Positions 47,726 through 61,319 of a stretch of 64,000 bases of DNA are shown here, one piece after another. Origin of the DNA: Bacilli bacterium (GTDB lineage Bacteria; Bacillota_I; Bacilli_A; RF39; UBA660); the NCBI GenBank assembly GCA_017441065.1, contig JAFSAI010000024.1, forward strand, positions 1,142 to 65,141, in the 5' to 3' direction. The translations under genes were made by a program, and so were the position numbers. Below the pieces are notes generated by a model. It searched no databases. It was not told the origin of the DNA and worked only from the letters and a program-made list of their open reading frames with translations. Numbering within the stretch: the first letter of the stretch is position 1; every line of letters begins with the position of its first letter.

Positions 47726-49288
47726 ATGCAATATAATATATTCAAACTTGAAAATAAGGAAGAATTAAAAAAAGAAATGTTGGAAAGAAACTTTGAAAAG
47801 ATAGGTAATGAAATCGAGAGTGGTAAGTATAAATTAAATTTATATTATAAATACGATAATGATTTAAAACTAAGCTGGAAAAATATATTGGTAGAATTTG
47901 GTGAAACAAATCCACCTGCAAGGACTGGAATATCCGGTATAATTATTTGCGAAAGTTGTAATAATAATTATGCTATTACATATGGGGCTAGTAGTTTTTT
48001 GGCTCAAAAATATTCTGATAGAGAGTTTGGCTTTAATTTTGCAAAAAGAATAGAATTAAAGGAAATGAAAAGAAAAAGCTCAATGACCCCTCATTCAAGA
48101 AGAAATTCATCTATAACTTCATTTAAAAATACGAAAACGATTGTATTTGATAGTGGAGAAAATATAACTAGCTTATCTTTTACTCCGGACAATGAATTTT
48201 ATGGAAAAAGAATTGATATTGGTAAATCAATAAAATTAAAAACAGATATTTCATTAAGCGATATATATCAACTTTTTGATCAAATTGAAAGTGATGTAAG
48301 TAATAATATAATAAACAGAATCCCACTTTTAACTAAAATTACAAATGCTGATGAAATAGAACGATATGATAAAATGATGTATGATTCTTTAAGTAAAGAA
48401 TTTGATACTTATGGAAACTCTAATTCATCACAGTTTTCTATGAATGAATTTTATATTGTAGGTAGTAGTATTTACTTTGAAGAAGATCATACCCAAGTGG
48501 TTAAAGTAGGTAAGTATGAAGAAGAAATAGAGTTGCATAATTTGAATGATCTATTTGAATTGTCTAAAAATATTGGTGTTGATATACAAACAATTATTGA
48601 AAGAGGAAAAATAATTTATAAGGATTCTTCAAATGAAAAAATATATACTGAGAGTATAAGAAAATATATAAACTATGAAATAGAATCAGAAAATGTTTCG
48701 TTGTATAATGATGAATGGTTTTATTACAATGATGATTATTATGATTTAGTAATGAATGAAATAAAAACAATTGAAATTGAATATAATTCTTCTGATGATT
48801 ATACAAAAGAACAAATAGAAACTTTTAGGGTTAATGAAAAAGAATATAGAGAGGAAATTTTAAATAAAATTTTATCAAAAAAATATAATGGTAGATTATT
48901 AGATAGAGATATGTTTATTTCAAAATATGAAAATGAGTATTTTAATTCAGAATATAAAATAGAATTAGCTGATTTGTTATTGGATAATGAATATGTATCT
49001 GTAAAAATTGGTTCTGCACAGGCATTATCATATTGCGTAGATCAATCTGATTTATCAGCTAAGTTAATTGATGCTAAAAAAATAAATTTAGAGGAAAAAG
49101 GGTTGCCAATACCTGATAAATTTGGTGTTTGGTTTTATATGGAAAGTAATAGCGCTTTTGAAAATGGTACTGTTAATCTTCAAAAGATTCATTCAATTAT
49201 GTTATTAAGCAAATTAAGTACATGGTCAAAAAATATTAAAATTTTAGGAAAGACTCCAGTAATTCATATTAATAAATATATTAAATAA
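47726..49288 (+). CDS. Large hypothetical protein (possibly TIGR04141/DUF6119-type sporadically distributed family; unverified)
   Basis: 520 aa with RBS AAGGAAG and no motif I can assign. The family suggestion rests on size, N-terminal style and island context only. Confidence 0.5.
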   Translation: MQYNIFKLENKEELKKEMLERNFEKIGNEIESGKYKLNLYYKYDNDLKLSWKNILVEFGETNPPARTGISGIIICESCNNNYAITYGASSFLAQKYSDREFGFNFAKRIELKEMKRKSSMTPHSRRNSSITSFKNTKTIVFDSGENITSLSFTPDNEFYGKRIDIGKSIKLKTDISLSDIYQLFDQIESDVSNNIINRIPLLTKITNADEIERYDKMMYDSLSKEFDTYGNSNSSQFSMNEFYIVGSSIYFEEDHTQVVKVGKYEEEIELHNLNDLFELSKNIGVDIQTIIERGKIIYKDSSNEKIYTESIRKYINYEIESENVSLYNDEWFYYNDDYYDLVMNEIKTIEIEYNSSDDYTKEQIETFRVNEKEYREEILNKILSKKYNGRLLDRDMFISKYENEYFNSEYKIELADLLLDNEYVSVKIGSAQALSYCVDQSDLSAKLIDAKKINLEEKGLPIPDKFGVWFYMESNSAFENGTVNLQKIHSIMLLSKLSTWSKNIKILGKTPVIHINKYIK

Positions 49289-49988: not shown

Positions 49989-50702
49989 ATGAAATTAAAT
50001 TCAATAATTAGTAATAATATTATAACTGAACTTGATAATTCTGATAATTTTGAAGACGTAGCTATTGTTTTGCATAAATATCAACAATATGAATTAAAAG
50101 GTTCTCATTTGGGAAGGGCTTTTGAAAAAATGTTTGTTAATTTAAATGGTTTTAGTCAATTTATACCAATGAGTGAATTAGAAAAATATCATCATTCATT
50201 CCATACAACCAACGGCGGAGATTGGTGTAGATCTAATCAAAGTTATTTAGGAAGAAAATATAATATAATTAGAGAAAAGCGTGGAGGCAGTATTTATGCT
50301 GTAAAGACGGATGGGATTAATAAAAATACTACTATTAATAGTGGCATAAGAAATGATATTGTAAATAGAATTCAGAAAGGCAGATGCGCAATTTTAGATG
50401 TTGGAACTAATATTGAATGTGATCATAAAGATGGTATGAAAGATGATTGGCGATTAAATGATAAAAATAGTCAGAACATTGATGATTTTCAGCCATTATC
50501 TAAATCGGCTAATGATGCTAAGCGTCAGCATTGTAGTTTATGTAAAAAATTAGGAAAACGTTATGATGCTAAAAGATTAGGATATTCGCATTCGTTTACG
50601 TTTGGAAATGAGAATTCTAAAACTTGTGTTGGCTGTTATTGGTATGATCCAATTGCTTTTAATAGAGAAATATCTAAAGATTTTGAAAAATTTGATAAAT
50701 AA
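49989..50702 (+). CDS. Putative type II restriction endonuclease, HNH/beta-beta-alpha-Me zinc-finger type
   Basis: ECDHKDG (50418-50435) ...N...FQPLSKSAN, plus HCSLC and CVGC zinc motifs. It lies convergent and tail-to-tail with an m5C methyltransferase gene. Confidence 0.6.
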   Translation: MKLNSIISNNIITELDNSDNFEDVAIVLHKYQQYELKGSHLGRAFEKMFVNLNGFSQFIPMSELEKYHHSFHTTNGGDWCRSNQSYLGRKYNIIREKRGGSIYAVKTDGINKNTTINSGIRNDIVNRIQKGRCAILDVGTNIECDHKDGMKDDWRLNDKNSQNIDDFQPLSKSANDAKRQHCSLCKKLGKRYDAKRLGYSHSFTFGNENSKTCVGCYWYDPIAFNREISKDFEKFDK

Positions 50703-50707
50703 AATAT

Positions 50708-50736
50708 AAAACAAGGAATTTTAATTATTCCTTGTT
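50708..50736. terminator. Bidirectional hairpin shared by the R and M genes
   Basis: AAACAAGGAAT-TTTAATT-ATTCCTTGTTT, overlapping the methylase stop codon. Confidence 0.6.
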
Positions 50737-51993
50737 TTCGTTTTCTAACATTATTTTTACTGCACATCCAATTGCTTTTCCTAATAGACAAGGAACTGCA
50801 TTTCCTATTTGAGTTAATTGCCATTTTTTTGAACCTTGAAATACAAAATCATCTGGAAATGATTGTAAACGTGCCAGTTCTCTTGCTGTTAATACTCTTG
50901 GAAGTTTTGGATGAATATTAGTTCCTCCATGGTTTTCTTTAATCGTGCAAGATGGTTCATTCCACGGACATTTTTTCCATGAATCAGAATAGTTTTTATA
51001 AAGACTCTTTCCTTCTTCTACATTTAATAGTCTTTGTTTCATTTCATCTGTATGTTTTGTAGTAACGTGATTAAATAGGGAATTATCAGGTATATTCATT
51101 AGATCTTCAATTGCATTTTTTGTTGTTACGTATTTTTGGGGCTCTAATAATGGTTTTGGGTGCAAGTTGTCTATTCCAATTCTATTTCCTATGAATATTA
51201 CTCTTTTTCTTGTTTGAGGAGTATAATAATCTGCGGCATTTAGTATGGTAACATTTATTTTATATCCAATTTTTTCGAAATCATTAATTATTTTTTCTTC
51301 AACTTTTCCACCTAGCATTGATCTTAGTCCAGGAACATTTTCCATAACTACAACTTTTGGCCTTAAATGGTCGACAATTTCTAACATATCCAGATATAAA
51401 GTGTTTCTATCGTCTGTAACTATTCTATTACCTGCCATACTGAACCCTTGACAAGGGAATCCTCCGACAATTAAATCAATATTTTTTCCCCAAACAGCAT
51501 CGTATAGATGTCTTTTTACATTATTATCTCTAATATCTCTGCTTTCAACATTTTCTTCAAATCCTTTTTTGTCCACAAAATTATATTTATATGTTGCTAC
51601 TGCTTGTTCCATAATTTCTACTGAACCGATTGGAGTCCAGCCTGCCATAACTAATCCACAAGATAATCCTCCTGCTCCAGAAAAAAGATCAATAAAATTA
51701 TATCCGTTTCTGTATTTAATATTTTTCCAGCCGTCTTTTGTCCAATCCTTACTTATATCAACAAAATTAATTTTTTTTGAATCTTCGTTTTTGTAATCTA
51801 CTTCGTCAAATATAGATTGGTTCTTTATGCCGCTTTGATAATTATTATACCATTCATTAAACCCTTCTTCAGAAATTCTGTATTTATTGTTTATCTTAGA
51901 CGCTTTTAAATTTCCCTCTGCAATTTGTCGCCTAATCGTTTTAATACTTTTGTTTGTTAGAATTGAAATTTCTTCCACATTATATATTTTCAT
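50725..51993 (-). CDS. DNA (cytosine-5)-methyltransferase with an N-terminal excisionase/MerR-like HTH
   Basis: Motif I FSGAGGLS, motif IV GGFPCQGFS, motif VI MENVPGL, motif VIII TPQTRKRV, motif X QIGNAVP. The N-terminal HTH is YNVEEISILTNKSIKTIRRQIAEGNLKA. The ATG at 51993 is preferred because the upstream TTG lies inside the promoter. Confidence 0.92.
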   Translation of the reverse strand: MKIYNVEEISILTNKSIKTIRRQIAEGNLKASKINNKYRISEEGFNEWYNNYQSGIKNQSIFDEVDYKNEDSKKINFVDISKDWTKDGWKNIKYRNGYNFIDLFSGAGGLSCGLVMAGWTPIGSVEIMEQAVATYKYNFVDKKGFEENVESRDIRDNNVKRHLYDAVWGKNIDLIVGGFPCQGFSMAGNRIVTDDRNTLYLDMLEIVDHLRPKVVVMENVPGLRSMLGGKVEEKIINDFEKIGYKINVTILNAADYYTPQTRKRVIFIGNRIGIDNLHPKPLLEPQKYVTTKNAIEDLMNIPDNSLFNHVTTKHTDEMKQRLLNVEEGKSLYKNYSDSWKKCPWNEPSCTIKENHGGTNIHPKLPRVLTARELARLQSFPDDFVFQGSKKWQLTQIGNAVPCLLGKAIGCAVKIMLENENKE

Positions 51994-52022
51994 ATTATCA
52001 TTCCTGTCCACTTTACATGTTA

Positions 52023-52051
52023 ATTTTACATAAGAGGAGGACAAAAGTCAA
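52023..52051 (-). promoter_or_regulatory. Methyltransferase promoter
   Basis: On the minus strand: TTGACT - 17 nt - TAAAAT. Confidence 0.55.
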
Positions 52052-52117
52052 TGGGCTTTTTTGATGTTACAATATTAACAATTTGTAGACTAAATAAACC
52101 AAATGTTTTTGCAATAT

Positions 52118-52146
52118 TTGACATATATTGTATTTTGGTGTAATAT
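52118..52146 (+). promoter_or_regulatory. Promoter of the five-gene operon
   Basis: TTGACA - 17 nt - TAATAT, with TG at -15/-14. It is flanked by an 11-bp inverted repeat AAATAAACCAA (52092-52102) / TTGGTTTATTT (52151-52161). Confidence 0.6.
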
Positions 52147-52175
52147 ATAGTTGGTTTATTTGAGGGGAGATAACT

Positions 52176-52394
52176 ATGAAAATTGAAAATAAAAGAGAAA
52201 AATTTATTCGCCTTGCTGAAAATAGAACTAACAAAGTTTTAAAAGAAATAGATTTAATAGGAAACCTTGCAAACAGAAGTAATTATGAGTATACACTGGA
52301 AGATACAGAAAAAATAATTAGGGCATTAAAAAAATCTGTGACAGATTTAGAAAATAAGTTTTCTAACAAAAGTAGGAGAGAATTTAAGTTATGA
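52176..52394 (+). CDS. Operon gene 1: small helical protein, unknown function
   Basis: 72 aa with RBS GAGGGGAG. The stop overlaps the next start (ATGA). Confidence 0.7.
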   Translation: MKIENKREKFIRLAENRTNKVLKEIDLIGNLANRSNYEYTLEDTEKIIRALKKSVTDLENKFSNKSRREFKL

Positions 52395-54583
52395 TTGCTT
52401 TATCAATTGAAGAATTAAATTTGTCTAACAAAGCAAAAAATGTATTAAGAAATTCTAATGTTGATGATATTTATTTAATGGCAATAGCTATAAATACGCC
52501 TGATTGTTTAATTGGATGTGGTGAAAAGACTTTGGCAGAATTAAAAAATGAAGTGGAAGAATTAAAAAAACAAGGTTATTATAGTGATGAATTTATAGAT
52601 AAATATTTGAGTTTTAATTTTATCGATTCTTTGGAGCTTTCAGTTCGCGCCAAAAATATTTTAAAACAAATGAAAATTTTTACACCTTCTGATTTAATTG
52701 ATTTATCTTTTGATGATTTAAATGGCTGTGCTGGGAAAAATACGGCATATGAAATTTTAGAATTTATTAACCAAAATAAAACAGATTTTATGTACAATCC
52801 AAATTGTAATTATAAATACCCTATTAAAAAAATTAATAATTTATGTGGAAACACAAAAATAGAATTGTTTTTAAATGTTTGTGATCGCCAAAAATATTTT
52901 GATAATAATATTTATAATATTTATGATTTAATTGTTTGTCCATTTGTTCCTAACAATTTTAATGATAAAGAACTACAAGAATTTAATTATTTTAAAAGTT
53001 TCTTTACAAAATTAGCTTATGGACAGTTAATTATTTCTATTAGTAGCAGTTTATCTTTAACATATATAAATATTCCTTTTAGTTTAAGTAATAAATATAA
53101 AATATTTGAGCTTGTTAAAATCAAAGAATTAATTTCTATTTGTGTGAACAATTTTAACGATTTTTCTTTGAAAGAACAATTAAATATTAAATTATATTTG
53201 AATTGGTTAAATACAATTGACATTCAAGATATAAATGAACATATTTTTAATAGTTTAAATTTATCAGATAAAGAAAAAGAAATAATGATTTTTAGAAATA
53301 TTATGACATTAGAGGAAACTGGCAATAAATTTGGTTTAACTAGAGAAAGAATAAGACAATTGGAATCAAAAATATGTGATAAGATAAGTCAAAAACTTTG
53401 CGAATTTCCTTTTAAGAAAATAATTGATAATGAAATATATTATTATGAACGTTGTACTGATTCGGAGAAGTTGTTATTGTATATAGATAGTGTTTTAGAT
53501 CAGTTTTATACTAAAATAAAAAAAGATAATAAATTTATTTTTATTAAAACCTCTGTTATAAATGAAATTTCTGATATGTTGAAAGAAAACAATACCTTTA
53601 TGAAAAAAAATGGTTACATTGAATATAGTTATAGCTGGAATAATGAAGTGTTAGATATAGCTTTGGATTATTTACAATTAAAACGACATAGAAACAATAT
53701 ATTTAACAATATTAACAAGAGTCAAATGGTAAAATTTGCATTAACCAAAATTAATAGACCAGTAAAAATTTATAATGAAGATGACAGAAGATTAATAATT
53801 GATACGATATATCACCTTTTTGGTGAATTGTTGGATGATTCTAGGGGATTAGAGGCTTTAATTGAAAAAAATTGTGTAAGAGTTGATTCAGGAATGTATG
53901 CTTTAGAAGATAATATTGTTCCATTAACAAAGGATACTTTTAATAAAATAGTAGAATATGTTAAAGATAATATAATAATTAATGCTAGAGATTTATTTGT
54001 TCCTTTTGGCGAAACTTTAATAGAACATAATTTGTTAAATGAGAATATTTTATATAGATATTTGAAAGAAAATTTATCTGATATATTATATTTTAATGGG
54101 GTGAGCGGGGTTATTTCTTCTAACTCTGATGATTCAAGTTGGGGAACTGTAATTATAAAATGCATTAAAGAAAAAGGTAAACCAATATCTAAAGCAGAAA
54201 TCATAGGAAGGTATCCTGTAACTACAGCTGTATATGATAATTTACCAATTAACTTTAATGACATTATTAAATGGGGAAAAGGTGAATTATTTTTAAAAAG
54301 CTTAATCTATTTTCCAGAAGAAGTTAAAACTAAATTTTTACAGTTGCTAAGTAAACAAAAAATTATGAAATTTGATGAGATCAGAGCTTTATTAAACTAC
54401 TTAGATAAAAGTATAATCTCTAGCAATCAAATAATTGATAACTATAGTTTAATAAGTTTTTTGAATAATACTGTTAAAGATAAAGTTGTTCTTAATAGAA
54501 AAAATGAGATAGCGATGATTAAAGAAGATTTTGGAGAAGTTAAAGTTGGTTCTTATTCTATTGCTGAAGAATTAACTATATAG
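52391..54583 (+). CDS. Operon gene 2: protein with two RNA polymerase alpha-CTD-like HhH modules, a sigma-70 region-4-like HTH and a ~390-aa unknown C-terminal region
   Basis: Residues 5-58 are IEELNLSNKAKNVLRNSNV...GCGEKTLAELK and residues 78-128 are LELSVRAKNILKQMKIFTPSDL...GCAGKNTAYEIL. Both parallel the alpha-CTD pattern (B. subtilis IEELDLSVRSYNCLKRAGI...NLGRKSLEEVK). Residues 288-335, LSDKEKEIMIFRNIMTLEETGNKFGLTRERIRQLESK, form a sigma r4 HTH. Confidence 0.75.
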   Translation: MIALSIEELNLSNKAKNVLRNSNVDDIYLMAIAINTPDCLIGCGEKTLAELKNEVEELKKQGYYSDEFIDKYLSFNFIDSLELSVRAKNILKQMKIFTPSDLIDLSFDDLNGCAGKNTAYEILEFINQNKTDFMYNPNCNYKYPIKKINNLCGNTKIELFLNVCDRQKYFDNNIYNIYDLIVCPFVPNNFNDKELQEFNYFKSFFTKLAYGQLIISISSSLSLTYINIPFSLSNKYKIFELVKIKELISICVNNFNDFSLKEQLNIKLYLNWLNTIDIQDINEHIFNSLNLSDKEKEIMIFRNIMTLEETGNKFGLTRERIRQLESKICDKISQKLCEFPFKKIIDNEIYYYERCTDSEKLLLYIDSVLDQFYTKIKKDNKFIFIKTSVINEISDMLKENNTFMKKNGYIEYSYSWNNEVLDIALDYLQLKRHRNNIFNNINKSQMVKFALTKINRPVKIYNEDDRRLIIDTIYHLFGELLDDSRGLEALIEKNCVRVDSGMYALEDNIVPLTKDTFNKIVEYVKDNIIINARDLFVPFGETLIEHNLLNENILYRYLKENLSDILYFNGVSGVISSNSDDSSWGTVIIKCIKEKGKPISKAEIIGRYPVTTAVYDNLPINFNDIIKWGKGELFLKSLIYFPEEVKTKFLQLLSKQKIMKFDEIRALLNYLDKSIISSNQIIDNYSLISFLNNTVKDKVVLNRKNEIAMIKEDFGEVKVGSYSIAEELTI

Positions 54584-54591
54584 GAGGGAAT

Positions 54592-56511
54592 ATGAATAAT
54601 AACATTAAATGGCAATTAAGGCCTACTTATACAGAAGGTGATAAATTTCATAATGGTGATACAGAAATTTTTAAATCTGGTAAATGGGCATTTTTAACTA
54701 GAGAGGTAATACAAAATTCAAATGATGCTTTTGATTCTATGAAAGATGAAAGTGGTAAATTAGTTATGAAATTTTCTATGGAGAATTTACCAATTAATGC
54801 TTTTCCTGATTTGGAAAATTTAAAAAAACATATAAACGGAACATATTCAATTAATAATTTGCCGGAAACATGTAAAAGTTTTTGCGAGAGTGCATTAAAA
54901 ACACTTTCAAGAGAATCGATAAAAATAATGAAAATATCAGATTTTAACACTTCTGGAGTATTGGGAAGTAATGACTTAAATAATATTAAAAGCCAATGGC
55001 GCGCATTGATTTATGATGAAGGAAATTCACAGAAAGATAGTAGACAGGCAGCGGGTAGTTTTGGATTAGGAAAAAATGCCCCATTTGCTTTATCTGGTAT
55101 TAATACAGTTTTTTATACAACAAAAGATAAGGATGGATTGTATGCTTTTGAAGGTGTTGCTAAACTTCATACTTCATATATTGATGATCAAAAATATGAA
55201 CCTAAAATATATTTTTCAAATTTATATAATAATAAAACAATACCATTAAATTACGATGATTGTAAGGATATAAATGATATTTTTAAGCGTGATATTAAAG
55301 GAACGGATATATTTATTATGGATGTTGATTATGATGAAGATAAAATAAAAAAAGAAATGATTCAAGCGGTAGTAGAAAATTTCTTCATTAGAATTCAAAA
55401 TTGTAAATTAGAAGTGGATATGTTTGGTGAGTTAATTAATAAAGATTCATTATTAAATATTGTTATGAAGTATTGTGATCAACCAATTGAATATACAAAT
55501 TCTAATATAAGATATGGTTATATAAAGCAGTATCTTAATACATATTTAGGAAAATATGAAAAAACAAAAATTTATAATGAAGAGGTTCCTGGTGTAGGAA
55601 AATTAAAATTGTTCATTGCTATTGACCCAGATATTAATGGAAAATGGGTTGCAATGTTTAGAACTAAAGGTATGAAAATTTTTGATTATAATTATAGATT
55701 AGCTCAACAACAATTTTCCGCAATCTTTATGCCAGATGATCCTGATGTGGATGAATTTTTAAGATCAATAGAAAATCCTACTCATGATTTATTTGATCCA
55801 GAAATTAGAATATCAGATAAAGATAAAAAAATAATAGCTCAGCAACGATATGATAAGATTATTAATTGGATTAAAGGTAAGATAGTAGAATTTACAAAGA
55901 TCAATGTCGATGAACAAGATTTTCTTGATGGTATGGAAGAGTATATTCAGTTGCTTGATGAGGATGAGAGTAAAGAACGAAAAGTAAAACAGCCTGATAT
56001 AGAAATTATTTCATACGAGCCTAAAAAACAAAGAATAAATATGTCAATACTTGATAATGCAGGTAGTGAAAAATTAGTAGAACCAGAGCCAGAACCGGAT
56101 GATGGAATTATTGATCATACAAATTCTTTGGAAGTATCTGTACCAAATGATGAAAAAGGTTCTGGTAAACAGTCAATTGTAAAAGATTATCATAATAATT
56201 TTTCTGTTAAACCGAAGATTATTTCATATAATAATACTTTAAGAACTGCTTTTGGAATTGAAAATCTTGACATTGACACAATAAATTTAGAGATACTTAC
56301 AGTTGGTGAAGATGATAATATTTCGGATTTTATTCCAAAAATACTTAAAGCGGTTGATTGTGTGAATAACGTTGAATTAAAAGTAGATAACAATAAAATA
56401 CTAAATATTAAAAATGAAAAAACTAACGTAATTGAAATAATTTTTGAACGTGATTTTCAGGCAAAATATAAAATTTCTGTGTATACAGTTAAAGCTATGG
56501 AGGATTTATAA
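54592..56511 (+). CDS. Operon gene 3: GHKL-superfamily ATPase (MORC/Hsp90/sacsin-like Bergerat fold) with an unknown C-terminal half
   Basis: N-box REVIQNSNDA (ExxxNxxDA, residues 37-46), G1-like ISDFNTSGV (115-123) and G2 GSFGLGKNAPF (155-165). RBS AGGAGGG. Confidence 0.75.
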   Translation: MNNNIKWQLRPTYTEGDKFHNGDTEIFKSGKWAFLTREVIQNSNDAFDSMKDESGKLVMKFSMENLPINAFPDLENLKKHINGTYSINNLPETCKSFCESALKTLSRESIKIMKISDFNTSGVLGSNDLNNIKSQWRALIYDEGNSQKDSRQAAGSFGLGKNAPFALSGINTVFYTTKDKDGLYAFEGVAKLHTSYIDDQKYEPKIYFSNLYNNKTIPLNYDDCKDINDIFKRDIKGTDIFIMDVDYDEDKIKKEMIQAVVENFFIRIQNCKLEVDMFGELINKDSLLNIVMKYCDQPIEYTNSNIRYGYIKQYLNTYLGKYEKTKIYNEEVPGVGKLKLFIAIDPDINGKWVAMFRTKGMKIFDYNYRLAQQQFSAIFMPDDPDVDEFLRSIENPTHDLFDPEIRISDKDKKIIAQQRYDKIINWIKGKIVEFTKINVDEQDFLDGMEEYIQLLDEDESKERKVKQPDIEIISYEPKKQRINMSILDNAGSEKLVEPEPEPDDGIIDHTNSLEVSVPNDEKGSGKQSIVKDYHNNFSVKPKIISYNNTLRTAFGIENLDIDTINLEILTVGEDDNISDFIPKILKAVDCVNNVELKVDNNKILNIKNEKTNVIEIIFERDFQAKYKISVYTVKAMEDL

Positions 56512-57404
56512 TGAGAATAAAATTTGATAATACTTATTTTCCAAAGCCAGTTTTAAATGAAAATTTAGATGATTTTAATAAAAATTCATTTAAAATTTCT
56601 TATAGTATTAAGAATTACGATAAAATTAGGCAAAAGTTAACTATAAATGTAAGTGTTGCGTTAGAAAATGAATATATTAAACGACAAATAAAAAGTGGGA
56701 AAGTTGTTCCATTGCTTCATTTAGAGCAAATTACTCAGAGACAGGTCGAACAATTATCTTTATCTGAAAGCAAAGAAGTTGAAATTGATTTGTTACAATA
56801 TGCTACAAATACTGAAATAGAAGTTATGGGTATATTGTATTGTAAAGAATCATTTGCTTTGATGGATGTAGAAAATTTAAACGATGTTTACAGAATGTTA
56901 GATAAACCAATATATTTTGGACGTGGAGATATAATTGGATATAGTAATTATATTGCCATAAAGTTGCCTGAAGATCGAAGAATAGGTAGTATTTTTAATT
57001 TAAATGGAGATAAAGATAAAATATTAAATGGAGATACATTGAAAGTTTCTTTAACAAATGATTTAATAGATATCATTTTAGAAGAAAAAGTTCATAAAAA
57101 ACTTGTAGATACTTATAGAAGTGATCCGTATGTAAAAAAATTAATTTTTTCTTCAATTGTTATTCCTGCATTAATTACAGCCTATACTGAAATGTTTAAT
57201 GATTATCCGACTTATAAAGAAAAGAAATGGTGTAAGAGTTTAGCTGATAAAATAGAAAAAGAAGAAAAATTAAAATCAGAAGAAATTTTTGTTCAATCAA
57301 ATTATGAATTAGATAAAATATATCATTATGTAAATATTGCAATGGGTGATTTATATAAAGATGCTATAGAATTTTATCATTCAAAACTGGAAGGTGATAA
57401 TTAG
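56511..57404 (+). CDS. Operon gene 4: hypothetical protein
   Basis: 297 aa. The start overlaps the previous stop (TAATG). No motif recognised. Confidence 0.65.
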   Translation: MRIKFDNTYFPKPVLNENLDDFNKNSFKISYSIKNYDKIRQKLTINVSVALENEYIKRQIKSGKVVPLLHLEQITQRQVEQLSLSESKEVEIDLLQYATNTEIEVMGILYCKESFALMDVENLNDVYRMLDKPIYFGRGDIIGYSNYIAIKLPEDRRIGSIFNLNGDKDKILNGDTLKVSLTNDLIDIILEEKVHKKLVDTYRSDPYVKKLIFSSIVIPALITAYTEMFNDYPTYKEKKWCKSLADKIEKEEKLKSEEIFVQSNYELDKIYHYVNIAMGDLYKDAIEFYHSKLEGDN

Positions 57405-57405
57405 T

Positions 57406-58143
57406 ATGGGAAAAATGTATTTGTTAAATGATAACGTGTTAGATAATTTAAAGAAATCTATTATTATTGAAAAATATAAACAAAATGCTTTTTTAGAAAA
57501 TGAATACCTTGGTAAACAATTCAGAACTTCTATAGATACTTTTATTGATATTAGTGATTTGCCCGAACTATATGTAAGGGAAAAAGATGAAGAACCCTTC
57601 TGGATTCAAGATTTAAATAATGCTATAAAACTTCATTCTGTCATAAATTCTAAAAATATTCCAATAAGATACTTGGTTGATGAAAGATTTTGGACTTATT
57701 TAACACATACTGTTTATTGGGATTATTTACAAAAAAGATGGCCAGCAGATTCTGAATCTAGAGTAAAACAAAAATGGTTTTTTGATGGTGGCAATCAAGT
57801 TTTTTCTAGACATTCTTTAGTTAGATTATGGTGGTTAGCAGAGTGCTCTTATTCAAATTATTACTCAAATCCGTATGAATTGACAAAAACAGCATTTGAA
57901 TTTCAAGATCCTTTTAATCAAGTAATTGAAAGAAAAATCAGTAAAAGTAGAAAAATATTTAGAGCTGCATTAAAGGCGTTGCATGATACTCCGGAAGCTT
58001 ATAAACTTAAAGGTGATAAAAACAGAACTAAATTTGGGAAAGCAATTAACACAATTGCTGGCGTAAAATTAATTGAAGTAATGTCAGAAGATGAAATTGT
58101 AAATATGTTTAAACAACAAATTGGATATATAATTAATGAATAA
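57406..58143 (+). CDS. Operon gene 5: hypothetical protein, Trp-rich
   Basis: 245 aa. The ATG lies 1 nt after the previous stop and is preceded by GGAAGGTGA. It has a conserved-looking core (RFWTYLTHTVYWDYLQKRWP...LVRLWWLAECSY) but no enzymatic motif. Confidence 0.65.
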   Translation: MGKMYLLNDNVLDNLKKSIIIEKYKQNAFLENEYLGKQFRTSIDTFIDISDLPELYVREKDEEPFWIQDLNNAIKLHSVINSKNIPIRYLVDERFWTYLTHTVYWDYLQKRWPADSESRVKQKWFFDGGNQVFSRHSLVRLWWLAECSYSNYYSNPYELTKTAFEFQDPFNQVIERKISKSRKIFRAALKALHDTPEAYKLKGDKNRTKFGKAINTIAGVKLIEVMSEDEIVNMFKQQIGYIINE

Positions 58144-58150
58144 AAATAAA

Positions 58151-58184
58151 GTCAAGAGTATATAAATTACGCTCTTGACTTTTA
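58151..58184 (+). terminator. Terminator of the five-gene operon
   Basis: GTCAAGAG - 13 nt - CTCTTGAC followed by TTTT. Confidence 0.55.
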
Positions 58185-58358: not shown

Positions 58359-59695
58359 ATGAACATAACAGATAAAGCAAAAGAATTTGCAATCAAAGCG
58401 CATAAAGGTCAAGTAAGAAAAAGTGAACCAGAAAAACCAATGGTAATACATCCAATAAATGCTGGTGAAATATTAAAAGAATATAGTTTTGATGATAATG
58501 TTATCGCTGCAGGTTATCTTCATGATGTTGTTGAAGATACTTCATACACTAAAGAAGATATTGAAGAATTATTTGGTAGTGATATTGCATCTTTAGTAAT
58601 GGGTGCTTCAGAACCTGATAAATCTTTATCTTGGGAAGAAAGAAAAAAACATACTATTGAAAGTATTAAAGAATTAGATATGAGACATAAAGCAGTAGTA
58701 TGTGCAGATAAGATTAGTAACTTAGAAGATTTAAGAAACTTTTTTGAAAGAAATGGTGAGTATAACTTTGATGCTTTTAGAAGAGGATATAAAGAACAAA
58801 AATGGTATTATACTGGTGTATATGAAAGTTTAATAACTAATGAGGATGAAAATCATCCTATGTTTGTTAGATTAAAAGAATTAGTAGATCATATCTTTAA
58901 TGATATAAAGAATGATGAATATGTTAAGAATGTTATATTTAAAGACAATATGGAAGAATATAATAAGTTATTAAAATTACATTATCGTAAATTAGAAATA
59001 TATAAAATGAATAAATTTATAACTAATAAGAAACCATATGTAATTGAATTTACTGGAACACCTAGAACAGGTAAACAACACTTATAAATAACTTATTAGA
59101 TTTCTTTAAAAAATGTGGATTTAAAGTATCAGTAATTGAAGAATTTACTACTTCAAAAAGATATAAAAAAGATATATATCCAACATTAAAGGATAAATAT
59201 AAAAATATAGTAAATACAGAAATACCTAAATATGTATTAAAAGAATTAGAAGATACTATTAATGATAATCCAGATATTATTATAGTAGATAGATCTTTAT
59301 TCGATAGATTAATATGGGTAGATAGATTACATATAAAAAATGGTATGAGTGATGAAGAGTATAATGATTATAAAAAGTTATATATACCATTAATAAAAGA
59401 AAAAATAGATATTATAATATCTACTTATACTGATAGTATAACTTCTCTAAAAAGAGATTATAATGCTAATCTATCTTTAGAAAAAAGAAATTTCTTAAAT
59501 GAAGATAATGTTAATGAATATAATAACTCATTACTTAATATGAAAGAATTAGCAAGTAATGAAGATATTAATTTTTATTTATTTGATACTACTGATAAAA
59601 ATCAAAGAGAAATATCTTTTGAAGTTGCAGATGTAATACTTAGTGATATGAGAAGTAAGTATGTTGAAGAAATACAAAAAGAATATAGAAGTTAG
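58359..59695 (+). pseudogene. Frameshifted fusion gene: RelA/SpoT-type HD ((p)ppGpp-hydrolase-like) domain + P-loop kinase-like domain
   Basis: The HD domain shows HKGQVRKSE...IHPINAG...GYLHDVVEDT. The Walker A FTGTPRTGK is interrupted at 59073-59087. The -1 frame continues TTLINNLLDFF...IIIVDRSLFDR...(ORF 59345-59695). One extra A in the AAA run would restore GKTTL. Confidence 0.75.
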
Positions 59696-59756
59696 ATTTA
59701 AAAAATATGTGCTATAATAATTAAAGAAAAGAATTGCCATTGTTGTAGGAGTGTTT

Positions 59757-61319
59757 ATGATACATGTAAAAAAAATGGACATTAGTTTTTATTATAGACA
59801 ATCATTATATTATATAAATTATTTTTTTTATAATGATAATAATTTCAATTTTTTTATAAAAAAAATAATTAAAAACTTAAAATTATTACCTCAAAAATAT
59901 AGAAATCGATCAGATCAACAAAAGTTGCTTCCTCTAAAAAAAGAAATAATGAAACTTTTTGAATCTGAATTACTAAAATTTTCAAAAAAAGAAGTGTTAA
60001 TAAAGATTTTACCAATAATTTCTGATAAAATTTTTTTGAAAAAGCAATACAATTTTTATAGATATAATATTGACGGAACTTCAAATTTATTTTACAATGT
60101 TCAAAAAATAGAATTTGAAATTAAAGTATTAAAATTTATTTTAGAAAAAAGGCTCGCATTAAATGATGTTAATGTTAGAAAAAAAATAAAAAGGAAAGAA
60201 TTAATTGAAATTATTAGTTTGGGATCTTTTGTATACAAATTTCAAATTGTGTTAGATTTTATGTATTATGAAATGAATTTAGGCTCTGTTGAAATAGACG
60301 AAAATTATAATTTAAATATAGATTTTTGTCAAACAAATTTGAATACAAAATATTTAGAAGAAACTTATGATGCTAATGATATCATTTTAGATGATAATAT
60401 TTTAAAAGAATATATTAAATGTTTTAAATTGGATTTAGGATTTGACATTAATGATTTTACAGAAGTTTCATCATGTTTGTGTTTAGATATACCTACTAAG
60501 AACCCCTTTAAATTGAATAATAATATATTTATAATTAAAAAAAGCAAATTGATAGAATTAGTTTATAAGAAAAACCAAAGGAATTTATCATATGATACAA
60601 TAAACAACATATTAAATTACCTTATATTAAATAAAGATGAAGTCGTTGCAAATTATAGAAGAGAAGAAACAGTTAATAGAATAGATCAAAAGCCTATATT
60701 AGATTATAATGGAGTATTGTACTATTCTCCTGCAATGCTTTCAGAAATTCATCGCTATTTTATAAATGCAATATTAATATATGATTTTCCATTTAAAAAA
60801 GATTTAAAAAATATTAATAAATTGTTTGAAAAAATCAAAAAAAAGGCAGAAAAACAAATTGTATATGATACAGCAAATGTTTTAAAAAAATATATAAGCG
60901 GCCCGATATATGTTGAACGTAAATTACATCAAATAAATTCACTAATAGGAAAGTCATTTTCTGAAAGTATAGGAGATTTTGATATTTTGGCTATAGATAA
61001 TATGAAAAAAATAATTTATAATATTGAAATTAAAAATTTAAAATTATATTCTACAATTTATGAAATGTATAGGCAATATCATGGATTTTATGATAAAAAC
61101 AATTATGAAATAAAATTTAGTAGAAGAATAGATGCTTTATCAGAAAATAAAAAGAATATTTTCCCTGTGTGTTTTAATCTGAATGTTGATGAGTACCAAA
61201 TAGTAAATGTTTTTTTGACTAATAAAAGTTTTAATCCATTGTTTTCGAAAAGAAAAGATATTATATATTTGAGTTTTAATATGTTTGAAAATTATTTAAA
61301 GTTGAAAGGTAATTTATAA
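59757..61319 (+). CDS. Hypothetical protein with a C-terminal PD-(D/E)xK-like nuclease motif
   Basis: RBS AGGAG 6 nt before the ATG at 59757. The motif is GDFDILAID...IYNIEIKNLK at about 60968-61040. The rest is unassigned. Confidence 0.6.
   Translation: MIHVKKMDISFYYRQSLYYINYFFYNDNNFNFFIKKIIKNLKLLPQKYRNRSDQQKLLPLKKEIMKLFESELLKFSKKEVLIKILPIISDKIFLKKQYNFYRYNIDGTSNLFYNVQKIEFEIKVLKFILEKRLALNDVNVRKKIKRKELIEIISLGSFVYKFQIVLDFMYYEMNLGSVEIDENYNLNIDFCQTNLNTKYLEETYDANDIILDDNILKEYIKCFKLDLGFDINDFTEVSSCLCLDIPTKNPFKLNNNIFIIKKSKLIELVYKKNQRNLSYDTINNILNYLILNKDEVVANYRREETVNRIDQKPILDYNGVLYYSPAMLSEIHRYFINAILIYDFPFKKDLKNINKLFEKIKKKAEKQIVYDTANVLKKYISGPIYVERKLHQINSLIGKSFSESIGDFDILAIDNMKKIIYNIEIKNLKLYSTIYEMYRQYHGFYDKNNYEIKFSRRIDALSENKKNIFPVCFNLNVDEYQIVNVFLTNKSFNPLFSKRKDIIYLSFNMFENYLKLKGNL

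What the first reader, a model, noticed from the sequence alone, without database searches (positions are those of the whole stretch)
52118..58184. Five-gene, translationally coupled operon (GHKL ATPase + RNA-polymerase-mimic protein + three orphans): candidate undescribed defence system
Five + strand ORFs (72, 730, 639, 297 and 245 aa) share one promoter (TTGACA-17-TAATAT, 52118-52146) and one terminator (58151-58184). They are tightly coupled: an ATGA overlap at 52391-52394, an 8-nt gap with AGGAGGG before 54592, a TAATG overlap at 56509-56513, and a stop and start 1 nt apart at 57402-57408.

Only two products carry readable domains. One has a GHKL/Bergerat ATPase head (ExxxNxxDA, GxxGxG). 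The other has two alpha-CTD-like HhH modules plus a sigma-70 region-4 HTH. I see no P-loop, helicase, methylase or classical nuclease motif in any of the five. The gene content therefore does not match the multi-gene systems I know that use GHKL/MutL-like ATPases (Mza needs Z1/AIPR-type partners; paraMORC pairs have helicase or nuclease partners), nor does it match BREX or DISARM.

The context is strongly defence-like. The operon is transcribed divergently from an m5C methylase of a type II RM pair. It abuts a truncated integrase and sits in a run of Fic, KAP NTPase, HNH and PD-(D/E)xK genes.
Basis: partly seen in the sequence, partly recalled or inferred. Interest (0 to 1): 0.92.

Follow-up and report, generated by a model that had tools for sequence, protein, structure and literature searches.

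The report
Methylase-linked GHKL defence candidate PDC-M33
This five-gene operon is real, but its last three genes are already catalogued as the untested phage-defence candidate PDC-M33; here they carry a conserved small first gene and a rare DNA-binding accessory gene, and, as in about half of their relatives, sit directly beside a cytosine DNA methylase.

Summary
There are five coupled + strand genes, a promoter conserved across loci, and a strong terminator hairpin.

"Undescribed" is not correct. PADLOC-DB models PDC-M33A, B and C match the 639-, 297- and 245-aa proteins (E 6e-101, 3e-25, 7e-40). PDC-M33 is one of 145 untested candidates from Payne et al. 2024.

What this analysis adds:
1. 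The 72-aa gene is a conserved first gene, present in 43 of 80 related loci, and PADLOC has no model for it.
2. The 730-aa alpha-CTD/sigma-r4 protein is a rare, position-shifting accessory (about 13 of 80 loci). Distant relatives pair instead with a PLD-helicase.
3. The ATPase is Hsp90/TRAP1-like: a GHKL domain and a transducer domain, then a disordered linker and a beta-sandwich. DUF6339 has a confident fold with no PDB match. No nuclease was found in the two modelled proteins or, by sequence search, in the other three.
4. A C5-cytosine methylase lies within 500 bp in 36 of 80 loci. In seven of them it overlaps the ATPase start. The neighbouring methylase is therefore probably linked to the system, not only a bystander type II RM gene.

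The best reading is a methylation-coupled, ATP-driven, restriction-like defence module whose effector is unidentified. Interest is moderate to high. Novelty: a new variant of a catalogued but uncharacterised kind.

The parts
52092..52161 (+). Promoter region of the operon. The -35 TTGACA is at 52118-52123 and the -10 TAATAT at 52141-52146. A perfect 11-nt inverted repeat brackets them: AAATAAACCAA (52092-52102) and TTGGTTTATTT (52151-52161).
   Evidence: Scan and repeats. TTGACA at an equivalent position in 31 of 41 related loci, and upstream AAATATT boxes enriched (29/40 vs 22/227 control regions; the test regions are very AT-rich, 23% G+C, and the controls were not composition-matched).
52176..52394 (+). 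s72: a small basic protein (72 aa, pI 9.8), probably helical (by eye, not modelled). It is the conserved first gene of the cassette. Motif: KRxKFxRLAExRTNK...LLGNxxNxxNYEYT...FKL.
   Evidence: Found directly upstream of the ATPase gene in 43 of 80 loci and in 6 of 10 viral contigs. Members are 30-61% identical across phyla. There is no PADLOC model and no significant Pfam or PDB relative.
52391..54583 (+). g730: accessory DNA-binding protein. Two RNA polymerase alpha-CTD-like HhH modules (about residues 3-62 and 76-122; 52397-52756), a sigma-70 region-4 HTH (residues 291-332; 53261-53386), and a conserved C-terminal region of about 400 aa with no known domain.
   Evidence: Pfam, NCBIfam and PDB hits. 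Family alignment A7 has R318, E319, R322 and Q323 invariant. Present in about 13 of 80 loci at three different positions. Only 10 homologues were found in the 5.8-billion-protein search.
54592..56511 (+). PDC-M33A: Hsp90/TRAP1-like GHKL ATPase with transducer domain (residues 1-445; 54592-55926), a disordered linker (452-527), and a C-terminal beta-sandwich (528-635; 56173-56496).
   Evidence: PADLOC PDC-M33A, E 5.7e-101 over the full length. Invariant GHKL motifs. AF2 model pLDDT 82. Foldseek hits TRAP1 (2e-9), Hsp90, GyrB43 and Topo IIb ATPase. The family has 7,685 representatives of 50%-identity clusters.
56511..57404 (+). PDC-M33B: 297-aa protein of unknown fold. No conserved acidic or histidine catalytic set; the only invariant residues are P13 and W240.
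   Evidence: PADLOC PDC-M33B, E 3e-25. Always follows A (76 of 80 loci; the rest were not detected, mostly at contig ends). No Pfam or PDB relative for any of 72 members.
57406..58143 (+). PDC-M33C: a DUF6339 protein, mostly alpha-helical, with conserved W96, R111 and W142-W143.
   Evidence: Pfam DUF6339 E 3e-40 and PADLOC PDC-M33C E 7e-40. AF2 model pLDDT 90, pTM 0.87. No structural match in PDB or BFVD (best E 1.3).
58148..58184 (+). Intrinsic terminator: a hairpin followed by a U-tract.
   Evidence: Fold -15.5 kcal/mol, z = -4.9; sequence.
50725..52044 (-). C5-cytosine DNA methyltransferase with an N-terminal HTH_17 domain, transcribed divergently from the operon. It is the probable modification partner or regulator of the cassette.
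   Evidence: Pfam DNA_methylase E 1e-69 and HTH_17 E 2e-6. A close methylase homologue (about 50-64% identical among the loci) lies next to the cassette in L001, L002, L017, L018, L058 and L064, and a more distant one in L060; it is divergent from s72 in L001, L017, L018, L058 and L060. For all 80 loci, 41 of 52 m5C methylase genes lie within 1 kb of the cassette.
49989..50702 (+). ICEA (NlaIII-like) family endonuclease, convergent with the methylase. It is the probable classical type II partner of the same methylase.
   Evidence: Pfam ICEA E 3e-38. The same ICEA-methylase-cassette layout occurs in L017 (ICEA E 4e-68) and L058.

Best explanation
The operon is a PDC-M33-type conflict or defence cassette. 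Its conserved core has four genes: s72, an Hsp90-like GHKL ATPase (M33A), M33B and the DUF6339 protein M33C. Here a rare accessory gene (g730) is inserted between s72 and the ATPase.

Proposed function: a restriction-like module coupled to the adjacent DNA methylase.
- The methylase marks host DNA.
- The ATPase, presumably as an ATP-gated dimeric clamp like Hsp90, GyrB or MutL, works with M33B/M33C and s72 on unmarked incoming DNA.
- No nuclease domain was detected in the core (M33B and s72 were not modelled), so the block would be either non-nucleolytic (BREX-like exclusion or clamping) or carried out by a recruited nuclease, such as the neighbouring type II enzyme.
- g730 keeps the -35-reading residues of sigma region 4 and has alpha-CTD modules. 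It most likely binds promoter-like DNA (TTGACA plus A/T-rich DNA), as a regulator of the operon or as an added DNA sensor.

Shown: gene content, folds, conservation and methylase linkage. Inferred: defence function, dependence on methylation, clamp mechanism and the role of g730.
For: Identity:
- PADLOC PDC-M33A/B/C hits.
- The A-B-C order is invariant wherever all three were detected (B in 76 and C in 73 of 80 loci; the rest mostly cut by contig ends).

Defence-like ecology:
- PDC-M33 was derived by guilt-by-embedding in RM, BREX and DISARM loci.
- Distribution is patchy: Bacillota, Bacteroidota, Pseudomonadota, CPR, Gastranaerophilales, Chloroflexota and Fusobacteriota.
- It occurs on 26 plasmids, including a Lactococcus conjugative plasmid where it sits between an AlwI-type RM system and AbiGI/GII, on 10 IMG/VR contigs and in 2 phage records.
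- In the window it lies among KAP NTPase, Fic, RM genes and an integrase remnant.

Methylase coupling:
- 34 of 140 immediate neighbours are C5 methylases, against 3 D12 m6A methylases.
- 41 of 52 methylase genes lie within 1 kb of the cassette, a density of 0.30 per flank in the first kb against 0.02 or less beyond 2 kb.
- The methylase ORF overlaps the ATPase start in L004, L007, L009, L052, L065, L068 and L076. In L083 it is embedded between s72 and A.
- It appears in every orientation and from several methylase subfamilies.
- In L012, L029, L035, L054 and L061 the gene beyond the methylase is not a recognisable endonuclease.
- D12 m6A methylases occupy the same adjacent slots in L044, L047 and L074 and lie one gene away in L025. 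This argues for self-marking rather than m5C-specific chemistry.

ATPase: GHKL motifs are invariant, and the fold matches the GHKL-plus-transducer modules of TRAP1, Hsp90, GyrB and Topo II.

g730: R318, E319, R322 and Q323 in the TRERxRQ helix are invariant.
Against: - No experiment exists for PDC-M33. It is one of the "145 untested" candidates.
- About half of the loci, including 15 of 35 with full 5-kb flanks, have no methylase nearby. For example, Lactococcus pS127 has no m5C methylase. Methylation may therefore not be obligatory.
- In at least 10 loci, including this window, the methylase has its own classical endonuclease: ICEA, HpaII, NgoFVII or LlaJI. The link could reflect co-mobility with type II RM systems.
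- No effector domain was identified.
- No component with evident sequence specificity matching the methylase was found.
- The dimeric-clamp behaviour is assumed from the GHKL family. It was not modelled.
Confidence: 0.45

Rival explanations
1. PDC-M33 is an autonomous defence system, for example abortive infection or sensing of a phage protein, that does not read methylation. It merely travels with, or is embedded beside, type II RM modules. Here the methylase belongs only to the ICEA endonuclease.
For: - The window, L017 and L058 have a complete ICEA-plus-methylase pair. L023 and L033 have HpaII R+M+Vsr. Four to six loci have NgoFVII-type enzymes.
- About 45-55% of loci lack an adjacent methylase.
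- Payne et al. found the cassette as cargo embedded in other systems.
- The C-terminal beta-sandwich of the ATPase is its least conserved folded domain (0.35 against 0.49 mean column identity), as expected for a sensor.
Against: - Adjacency is far tighter than island-level clustering: start-codon overlap in 7 loci and insertion inside the operon in L083.
- It is specific for DNA methylases rather than other defence genes.
- Several loci have the methylase but no recognisable endonuclease.
Confidence: 0.3
2. The cassette is not immunity. It is an m5C-associated DNA-maintenance module, with a MutL-like ATPase helping Vsr or a glycosylase to repair T:G mismatches from m5C deamination, or otherwise managing methylated DNA.
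For: - Vsr is present in 11 loci and HhH-GPD glycosylases in 4.
- MutL is known to stimulate Vsr (discussed in PMC2292703).
- The link is overwhelmingly to m5C rather than m6A methylases.
Against: - Vsr and glycosylases accompany m5C methylases anywhere, so their presence is explained without the cassette.
- The ATPase is Hsp90/TRAP1-like. MutL was not among the significant structural matches.
- D12 m6A methylases also occupy the slot.
- The cassette occurs without any methylase on plasmids next to Abi genes.
- Its sporadic, mobile distribution is atypical for a repair function.
Confidence: 0.07
3. g730 is an independent, embedded single-gene module, either a regulator or a separate sensor/defence gene. 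It happens to sit inside the operon and is not a subunit of the M33 complex. In the more exotic version it is an RNA polymerase decoy that detects phage proteins targeting sigma region 4 or alpha-CTD.
For: - It is absent from about 84% of loci and found upstream, inside or downstream of the cassette.
- Distant 984-aa relatives are instead translationally coupled to a PLD+ResIII/SNF2 helicase, with no M33 genes.
- Payne et al. show that defence genes are commonly embedded in other systems.
- The best PDB match is sigma-A region 4 (4g6d).
Against: - It recurs next to M33 in at least three arrangements across lineages. That argues for a specific functional tie.
- In the window it is translationally coupled on both sides.
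- The invariant residues are the DNA-reading ones of region 4.2. This favours DNA binding over pure protein mimicry (the residue roles are from established sigma-70 structural work, recalled and not tested here).
Confidence: 0.3

Closest known systems
PDC-M33 (PADLOC-DB v2 phage defence candidate; Payne et al. 2024, bioRxiv 10.1101/2024.01.29.577857; cassette CAS_00129)
   Same: The three genes A, B and C match its HMMs in the same order and on the same strand.
   Different: PDC-M33 is defined as three genes and is untested. The window adds the conserved s72 gene and the g730 accessory gene, neither of which hits any PADLOC model. The methylase linkage is mentioned nowhere in the paper's main text (0 occurrences of 'methyltransferase'); its supplementary files were searched only for the cassette and family identifiers.
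MORC/paraMORC GHKL ATPases of RM-linked operons (Iyer, Abhiman & Aravind 2008, PMC2292703)
   Same: A GHKL-plus-transducer ATPase encoded beside DNA methylases (mostly cytosine) and Vsr endonucleases. It is predicted to act as an ATP-driven engine in restriction-like systems.
   Different: - No Pfam HATPase_c or HATPase_c_3 hit.
- The structure is nearest Hsp90/TRAP1, not MutL or MORC.
- The partners are M33B, DUF6339 and s72 rather than SF-II helicases or RE-fold nucleases.
Mza system (MzaA sigma-70-like protein, MutL-like GHKL, Z1, DUF, AIPR)
   Same: It combines a GHKL ATPase with a protein of about 730 aa that carries a sigma region-4 HTH. Mza-like trios (m5C methylase, HATPase_c_3, Z1) even lie directly downstream of M33 in L004, L009 and L065.
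   Different: - The MzaA model matches only the region-4 helix (31.5 bits against a cutoff of 800).
- There are no Z1 or AIPR genes in the operon.
- Region 4 is mid-protein in g730 but near the C-terminal end of the MzaA model.
VcSduA / Shedu type I-D (paraMORC3), an experimentally validated GHKL defence protein (PMC12137116)
   Same: An N-terminal GHKL ATPase whose catalytic glutamate is needed for anti-phage activity, proposed to gate an effector.
   Different: VcSduA is a single protein with a C-terminal DUF4263 PD-(D/E)xK nuclease. M33A ends in a beta-sandwich, and no nuclease was detected in the cassette.
BREX / DISARM (multi-gene, methylation-based exclusion systems)
   Same: A multi-gene cassette linked to a DNA methylase. 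No obvious classical restriction nuclease in the core.
   Different: - No PglZ, BrxC, PglX, DrmA, DrmB or DrmC homologues; only chance-level PADLOC hits (BrxF 0.1, PglW 0.025).
- The methylase is optional and of ordinary type II Dcm type.

Membership tests
PDC-M33 (PADLOC candidate) | Protein matching the PDC-M33A model | tested here: met
   E 5.7e-101, residues 16-631 against model positions 15-622 of 627.
PDC-M33 (PADLOC candidate) | Proteins matching the PDC-M33B and PDC-M33C models | tested here: met
   B E 3.2e-25; C E 7.3e-40, plus three weaker C-variant models. C is also Pfam DUF6339, E 3e-40.
PDC-M33 (PADLOC candidate) | Cassette order A>>B>>C on one strand (FAM_02818>>FAM_02838>>FAM_01881) | tested here: met
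   The window has this order with overlapping or 1-nt junctions. The order is the same wherever all three were detected in the 80 loci.
PDC-M33 (PADLOC candidate) | Demonstrated anti-phage activity | not testable with these tools
   The source paper lists it among untested candidates. No paper mentions PDC-M33 or DUF6339.
GHKL ATPase superfamily | Bergerat-fold motifs: N-box ExxxNxxD, G1 DxxxxG, G2 GxxGxG | tested here: met
   E38, N42, D45, D117, G122, G155, G158 and G160 are invariant in 104 sequences.
GHKL ATPase superfamily | GHKL fold plus transducer (S5-like) domain | tested here: met
   Foldseek matches TRAP1 at 2e-9, Hsp90 at 7e-7, GyrB43 at 1e-5 and Topo IIb ATPase at 3e-5, over about 410-490 aligned columns. 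Global TM scores are low (about 0.3), because the model contains extra domains and domain orientation differs.
MORC / paraMORC | HATPase_c_3-type sequence signature / MORC-specific GhXhhpXXRhl motif | tested here: not met
   No Pfam HATPase_c or HATPase_c_3 hit at E up to 1. There is only a sub-threshold NCBIfam sacsin-like hit, E 0.085. The MORC motif itself was not searched.
Mza | MzaA equivalog | tested here: not met
   NF041931 scores 31.5 bits against a cutoff of 800, over the region-4 helix only. PADLOC MzaA E 3e-4 over 29 residues.
Mza | Z1 and AIPR partner genes | tested here: not met
   None of the five proteins hits Z1 or AIPR in Pfam or PADLOC.
BREX / DISARM | PglZ/BrxC/PglX or DrmA/DrmB/DrmC core genes | tested here: not met
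   Only chance-level PADLOC hits (BrxF 0.1, PglW 0.025).
Shedu type I-D (GHKL-DUF4263) | C-terminal DUF4263 PD-(D/E)xK nuclease | tested here: not met
   No Pfam hit. The C-terminus is a beta-sandwich in the model.
Type II RM pair (neighbouring genes) | C5 methylase plus an adjacent endonuclease-family gene | tested here: met
   DNA_methylase E 1e-69 and ICEA E 3e-38, convergent and 22 bp apart. Cognate specificity was not tested.

The most novel reading that the evidence does not exclude
s72-M33A-M33B-DUF6339 plus a neighbouring ordinary Dcm-type (or Dam-type) methylase form a new class of epigenetic immunity. An Hsp90-like GHKL clamp, with no nuclease of its own, excludes or silences unmethylated incoming DNA. 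In the rare g730 variant the system is additionally aimed at strong promoter-like DNA (TTGACA plus UP-like A/T tracts), or at phage factors that hijack sigma region 4 or alpha-CTD. That would tie restriction-like immunity to the transcription apparatus.
Probability: 0.15. Interest if true: 0.85.

Novelty: new variant of a known kind. Interest (0 to 1): 0.6.

Why it matters
PDC-M33 is widespread. The ATPase family has about 7,700 clusters at 50% identity, and at least 328 GTDB species representatives carry a relative. It also occurs on plasmids and prophage-like contigs. It is completely uncharacterised.

This analysis gives a sharper, testable definition: a four-gene core with a conserved small first gene and promoter, optional g730, and frequent operonic coupling to Dcm-type methylases. 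It also shows a core with an Hsp90-like ATPase, a protein fold with no solved relative, and no detectable nuclease.

If the methylase coupling is functional, this would be another route by which bacteria turn a simple methyl mark into immunity. It would also be a prokaryotic parallel to GHKL (MORC-type) readers of DNA methylation.

Lactococcal dairy plasmids carry the cassette next to AbiG, which makes it practically relevant and easy to test.

Tried and rejected
- **Profile searches against PDB sequences.** Profiles of A, B, C and s72 found no real relatives, only designed helical proteins or noise.
- **Pfam on M33B.** All 72 members gave nothing consistent.
- **Fusions in long DUF6339 variants.** Only DUF6339 was detected. 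The C-terminal tails looked GreA-C-terminal-like by eye, but only 2 of the 7 tail sequences scanned gave sub-threshold GreA_GreB hits (E 0.08-0.1), so this is not claimed.
- **s72 as a HEPN (DUF4145) domain.** 8 of 42 members gave weak hits (best E 0.009). The protein is too short, and I saw no Rx4-6H motif in the family consensus. Rejected as unproven.
- **Foldseek of DUF6339.** No match in PDB or BFVD.
- **Literature.** Searches for PDC-M33 and DUF6339 returned nothing. The PADLOC 2021 paper does not describe Mza.
- **Mza, BREX, DISARM and Shedu membership.** Tested and not met.
- **Housekeeping or vertically inherited locus.** Rejected. Flanking genes differ between loci, and the cassette occurs in many phyla, on plasmids and on viral contigs.

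Full report
**1. Observation**

The five + strand ORFs are present exactly as described.

The junctions read from the sequence are:
- an ATGA overlap at 52391-52394;
- stop TAG at 54581-54583, then GGAGGG, then ATG at 54592;
- a TAATG overlap at 56509-56513;
- TAG at 57402-57404, one base, then ATG at 57406.

The promoter TTGACA-17-TAATAT (52118-52146) is one of 57 consensus matches in a region where 62 are expected by chance. Alone it proves nothing. However, a perfect TTGAC(A) sits roughly 35-70 nt upstream of the small first gene in 31 of 41 related loci from several phyla. The consensus context is ataTTGACAatat, and A/T boxes (AAATATT) are enriched upstream. The enrichment may be inflated, because these upstream regions are only 23% G+C and the control regions were not composition-matched.

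The terminator hairpin folds at -15.5 kcal/mol (z = -4.9) and is followed by UUUU. The simple scan missed it because of its long loop.

**2. What the proteins are**

- **730-aa protein (g730).** It has two RNA_pol_A_CTD stretches (E 2e-11) and a Sigma70_r4 domain (E 5e-8). Against PDB sequences, only sigma region 4 and alpha-CTD are detectable.
- **639-aa protein (M33A).** It has no Pfam hit and no sequence relative in the PDB, even with a profile. All GHKL motifs are invariant in 104 homologues. An AlphaFold model (pLDDT 82) matches the GHKL-plus-transducer modules of TRAP1/Hsp90 (E 2e-9), GyrB and Topo II. These are followed by a disordered linker (residues 452-527) and a C-terminal beta-sandwich. 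The protein is Hsp90/sacsin-like rather than MutL/MORC-like, and it carries no nuclease.
- **245-aa protein (M33C).** It is Pfam DUF6339 (E 3e-40). Its model is confident (pLDDT 90, pTM 0.87), mostly helical, and matches nothing in PDB or BFVD.
- **297-aa protein (M33B).** No family was found in Pfam for any of 72 homologues, and it has no conserved catalytic-type residues.
- **72-aa protein (s72).** It is basic (pI 9.8), looks helical from its sequence (it was not modelled) and is strongly conserved.

**3. It is already catalogued**

PADLOC-DB v2 models PDC-M33A, PDC-M33B and PDC-M33C match the 639-, 297- and 245-aa proteins with E values of 5.7e-101, 3.2e-25 and 7.3e-40.

PDC-M33 is cassette CAS_00129 (three families, 98 occurrences) in the supplementary tables of Payne et al. 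2024. It was found by "guilt-by-embedding" inside RM, BREX and DISARM loci. It is explicitly one of 145 untested candidates.

No paper in the library mentions PDC-M33 or DUF6339.

**4. Comparative genomics**

A scan of GTDB species representatives found at least 328 relatives of the ATPase, and 80 loci were analysed. A full HMM search found 7,685 representatives of 50%-identity clusters.

Across the 80 loci:
- The order A-B-C is invariant wherever all three were detected; B was missed in 4 loci and C in 7, mostly at contig ends.
- The 72-aa gene lies directly upstream of A in 43 of 80 loci, and in 6 of 10 IMG/VR contigs. It is a conserved fourth core gene that PADLOC does not model.
- The g730 family is present in only about 13 of 80 loci, in three arrangements: between s72 and A (window, L001, L002), upstream, or downstream of C.
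- g730 is rare overall, with 10 hits among 5.8 billion proteins.
- Distant 984-aa relatives of g730 are coupled to a PLD+ResIII/SNF2 helicase rather than to M33.

g730 is thus a modular accessory, not a core subunit.

**5. The methylase link**

The strongest new result concerns the neighbouring methylase.
- Homologues of the window's C5 methylase lie within 10 kb in 46 of 80 loci.
- 41 of 52 such genes lie within 1 kb of the cassette. The density is 0.30 per flank in the first kb and 0.02 or less beyond 2 kb. In 36 of 80 loci the methylase is within 500 bp.
- Of 140 immediate flanking genes, 34 are C5 methylases, 6 are NgoFVII-type endonucleases, 5 are Vsr and 3 are D12 m6A methylases.
- The methylase ORF overlaps the ATPase start in seven loci. 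In L083 it sits inside the operon between s72 and A.
- It occurs in all orientations and from several subfamilies.

Some loci, including this window, also have a classical endonuclease next to the methylase:
- ICEA in the window, L017 and L058;
- HpaII in L023 and L033;
- NgoFVII and LlaJI in others.

Other loci (L012, L029, L035, L054, L061) have no recognisable endonuclease there.

In the window's subfamily the methylase carries an N-terminal HTH_17 domain and is transcribed divergently from the cassette. This places the cassette where a divergently transcribed R gene sits in SsoII-like RM systems. That comparison is from memory and was not tested.

About half of the loci have no adjacent methylase, for example Lactococcus pS127.

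**6. Mechanism**

The best-supported reading is a mobile defence or conflict cassette functionally coupled to a DNA methylase.
- The GHKL ATPase would act as an ATP-gated clamp or engine together with M33B, M33C and s72.
- Self-protection would come from the neighbouring methylase.
- The effector is unidentified. The block would be non-nucleolytic or would use a recruited nuclease.

In g730, R318, E319, R322 and Q323 are invariant across the family. These correspond to the -35-reading residues of sigma-70 region 4.2 (established knowledge, not tested here). I therefore favour binding to promoter-like DNA, as regulator or sensor, over pure protein mimicry.

Rival explanations:
- an autonomous system that merely co-travels with type II RM;
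- an m5C-damage maintenance module, which is unlikely given the Hsp90-like fold, the m6A-methylase cases and the plasmid and Abi contexts;
- g730 as an independent embedded gene or an RNA polymerase decoy.

**7. Comparison with known systems and verdict**

- **Membership of PDC-M33 is met** on all sequence and order criteria.
- **Mza is not met.** The MzaA model scores 31.5 bits against a cutoff of 800, and there are no Z1 or AIPR genes.
- **BREX, DISARM and Shedu type I-D are not met**.
- **Conceptually closest class:** the RM-linked MORC/paraMORC systems of Iyer et al. 2008, which are also tied to cytosine methylases and Vsr. The ATPase subfamily and the partner proteins differ.
- **Novelty:** a new variant (s72 plus a g730 insertion, methylase-coupled) of a catalogued but experimentally unexplored kind.
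- **Interest:** The cassette is not undiscovered, but it is widespread, lacks a detectable nuclease, contains a fold without solved relatives, and has a previously unremarked tight link to Dcm-type methylases that makes a clear experiment possible.

Noticed in passing
window 52092-52161; upstream regions of s72 in L001-L080: The promoter architecture is conserved across phyla: ataTTGACAatat, often forming a short palindrome around the -35, plus AAATATT(T) boxes about 25-30 nt upstream that resemble UP elements. In the window a perfect 11-nt inverted repeat brackets the promoter. These could be operators for s72, for the HTH of the methylase, or for g730.
   Followed up: partly
L004 13699-19666, L009 12873-19787, L065 13708-20435: Directly downstream of the M33 cassette lie a second, larger m5C methylase, a HATPase_c_3 GHKL protein and a Z1-domain protein. 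This is an Mza-like or paraMORC-type module, so two different GHKL systems flank shared methylases in Paenibacillus.
   Followed up: partly
L081 4960-9944, L082 2284-5678: 984-aa relatives of g730 (alpha-CTD plus sigma r4) overlap the start of a PLD + ResIII/SNF2 helicase gene, and no M33 genes were detected by HMM search of these loci. A similar PLD-helicase (f18) lies upstream of M33 in L004, L048 and L063. This may be a separate two-gene system that uses the same DNA-binding partner.
   Followed up: partly
L038, L047, L066, L067, L015 (C-terminal tails of long DUF6339 proteins); L037 3661-5223: Some DUF6339 proteins carry a C-terminal tail of about 60 aa that looks like the GreA/GreB C-terminal domain. 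Only 2 of the 7 tail sequences scanned gave sub-threshold Pfam hits (E about 0.1). By eye, the tail of the L037 protein resembles the N-terminal domain of the large g730 forms.
   Followed up: partly
window 52391-54583: The NCBI record annotates this gene as 637 aa (IJN13_03325, 87% of the ORF). Six homologues of 730-737 aa align over 100% of the long ORF, so the upstream ATG that overlaps the s72 stop is the better start.
   Followed up: yes
window 58359-59087 and 59345-59695: The HD_4-domain ORF ends just after a Walker-A-like GTPRTGK motif, and a separate 116-aa ORF follows after a gap. This looks like a frameshifted or split HD-plus-P-loop gene immediately downstream of the terminator.
   Followed up: no
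window 47726-49288 and 59751-61319: Two large ORFs (520 and 522 aa) flanking the island have no Pfam domain. They may be further uncharacterised defence-island cargo.
   Followed up: no
L093 (Lactococcus lactis plasmid pS127, NZ_CP061323.1, 106588-110213): A cultured dairy strain carries A-B-C (annotated as hypothetical, hypothetical and DUF6339 family) on a conjugative plasmid. The cassette sits between an AlwI-type RM system and abiGI/abiGII, without s72 or an m5C methylase. It is a convenient native system for testing.
   Followed up: partly
L014 345-566, L037 617-850: In two loci lacking s72, the ORF just upstream of the ATPase is a different small protein of about 75 aa (MADIxYEI...WTKE(V/L)N(L/F)ISWN...). 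By eye it resembles PC4/YdbC-like ssDNA-binding proteins.
   Followed up: no
80 loci: Presence of s72 correlates with presence of a nearby m5C methylase: 20 of 27 against 8 of 20 in loci with at least 3 kb of flank on each side (Fisher p = 0.03). Where the methylase ORF overlaps the ATPase start, s72 is absent.
   Followed up: partly
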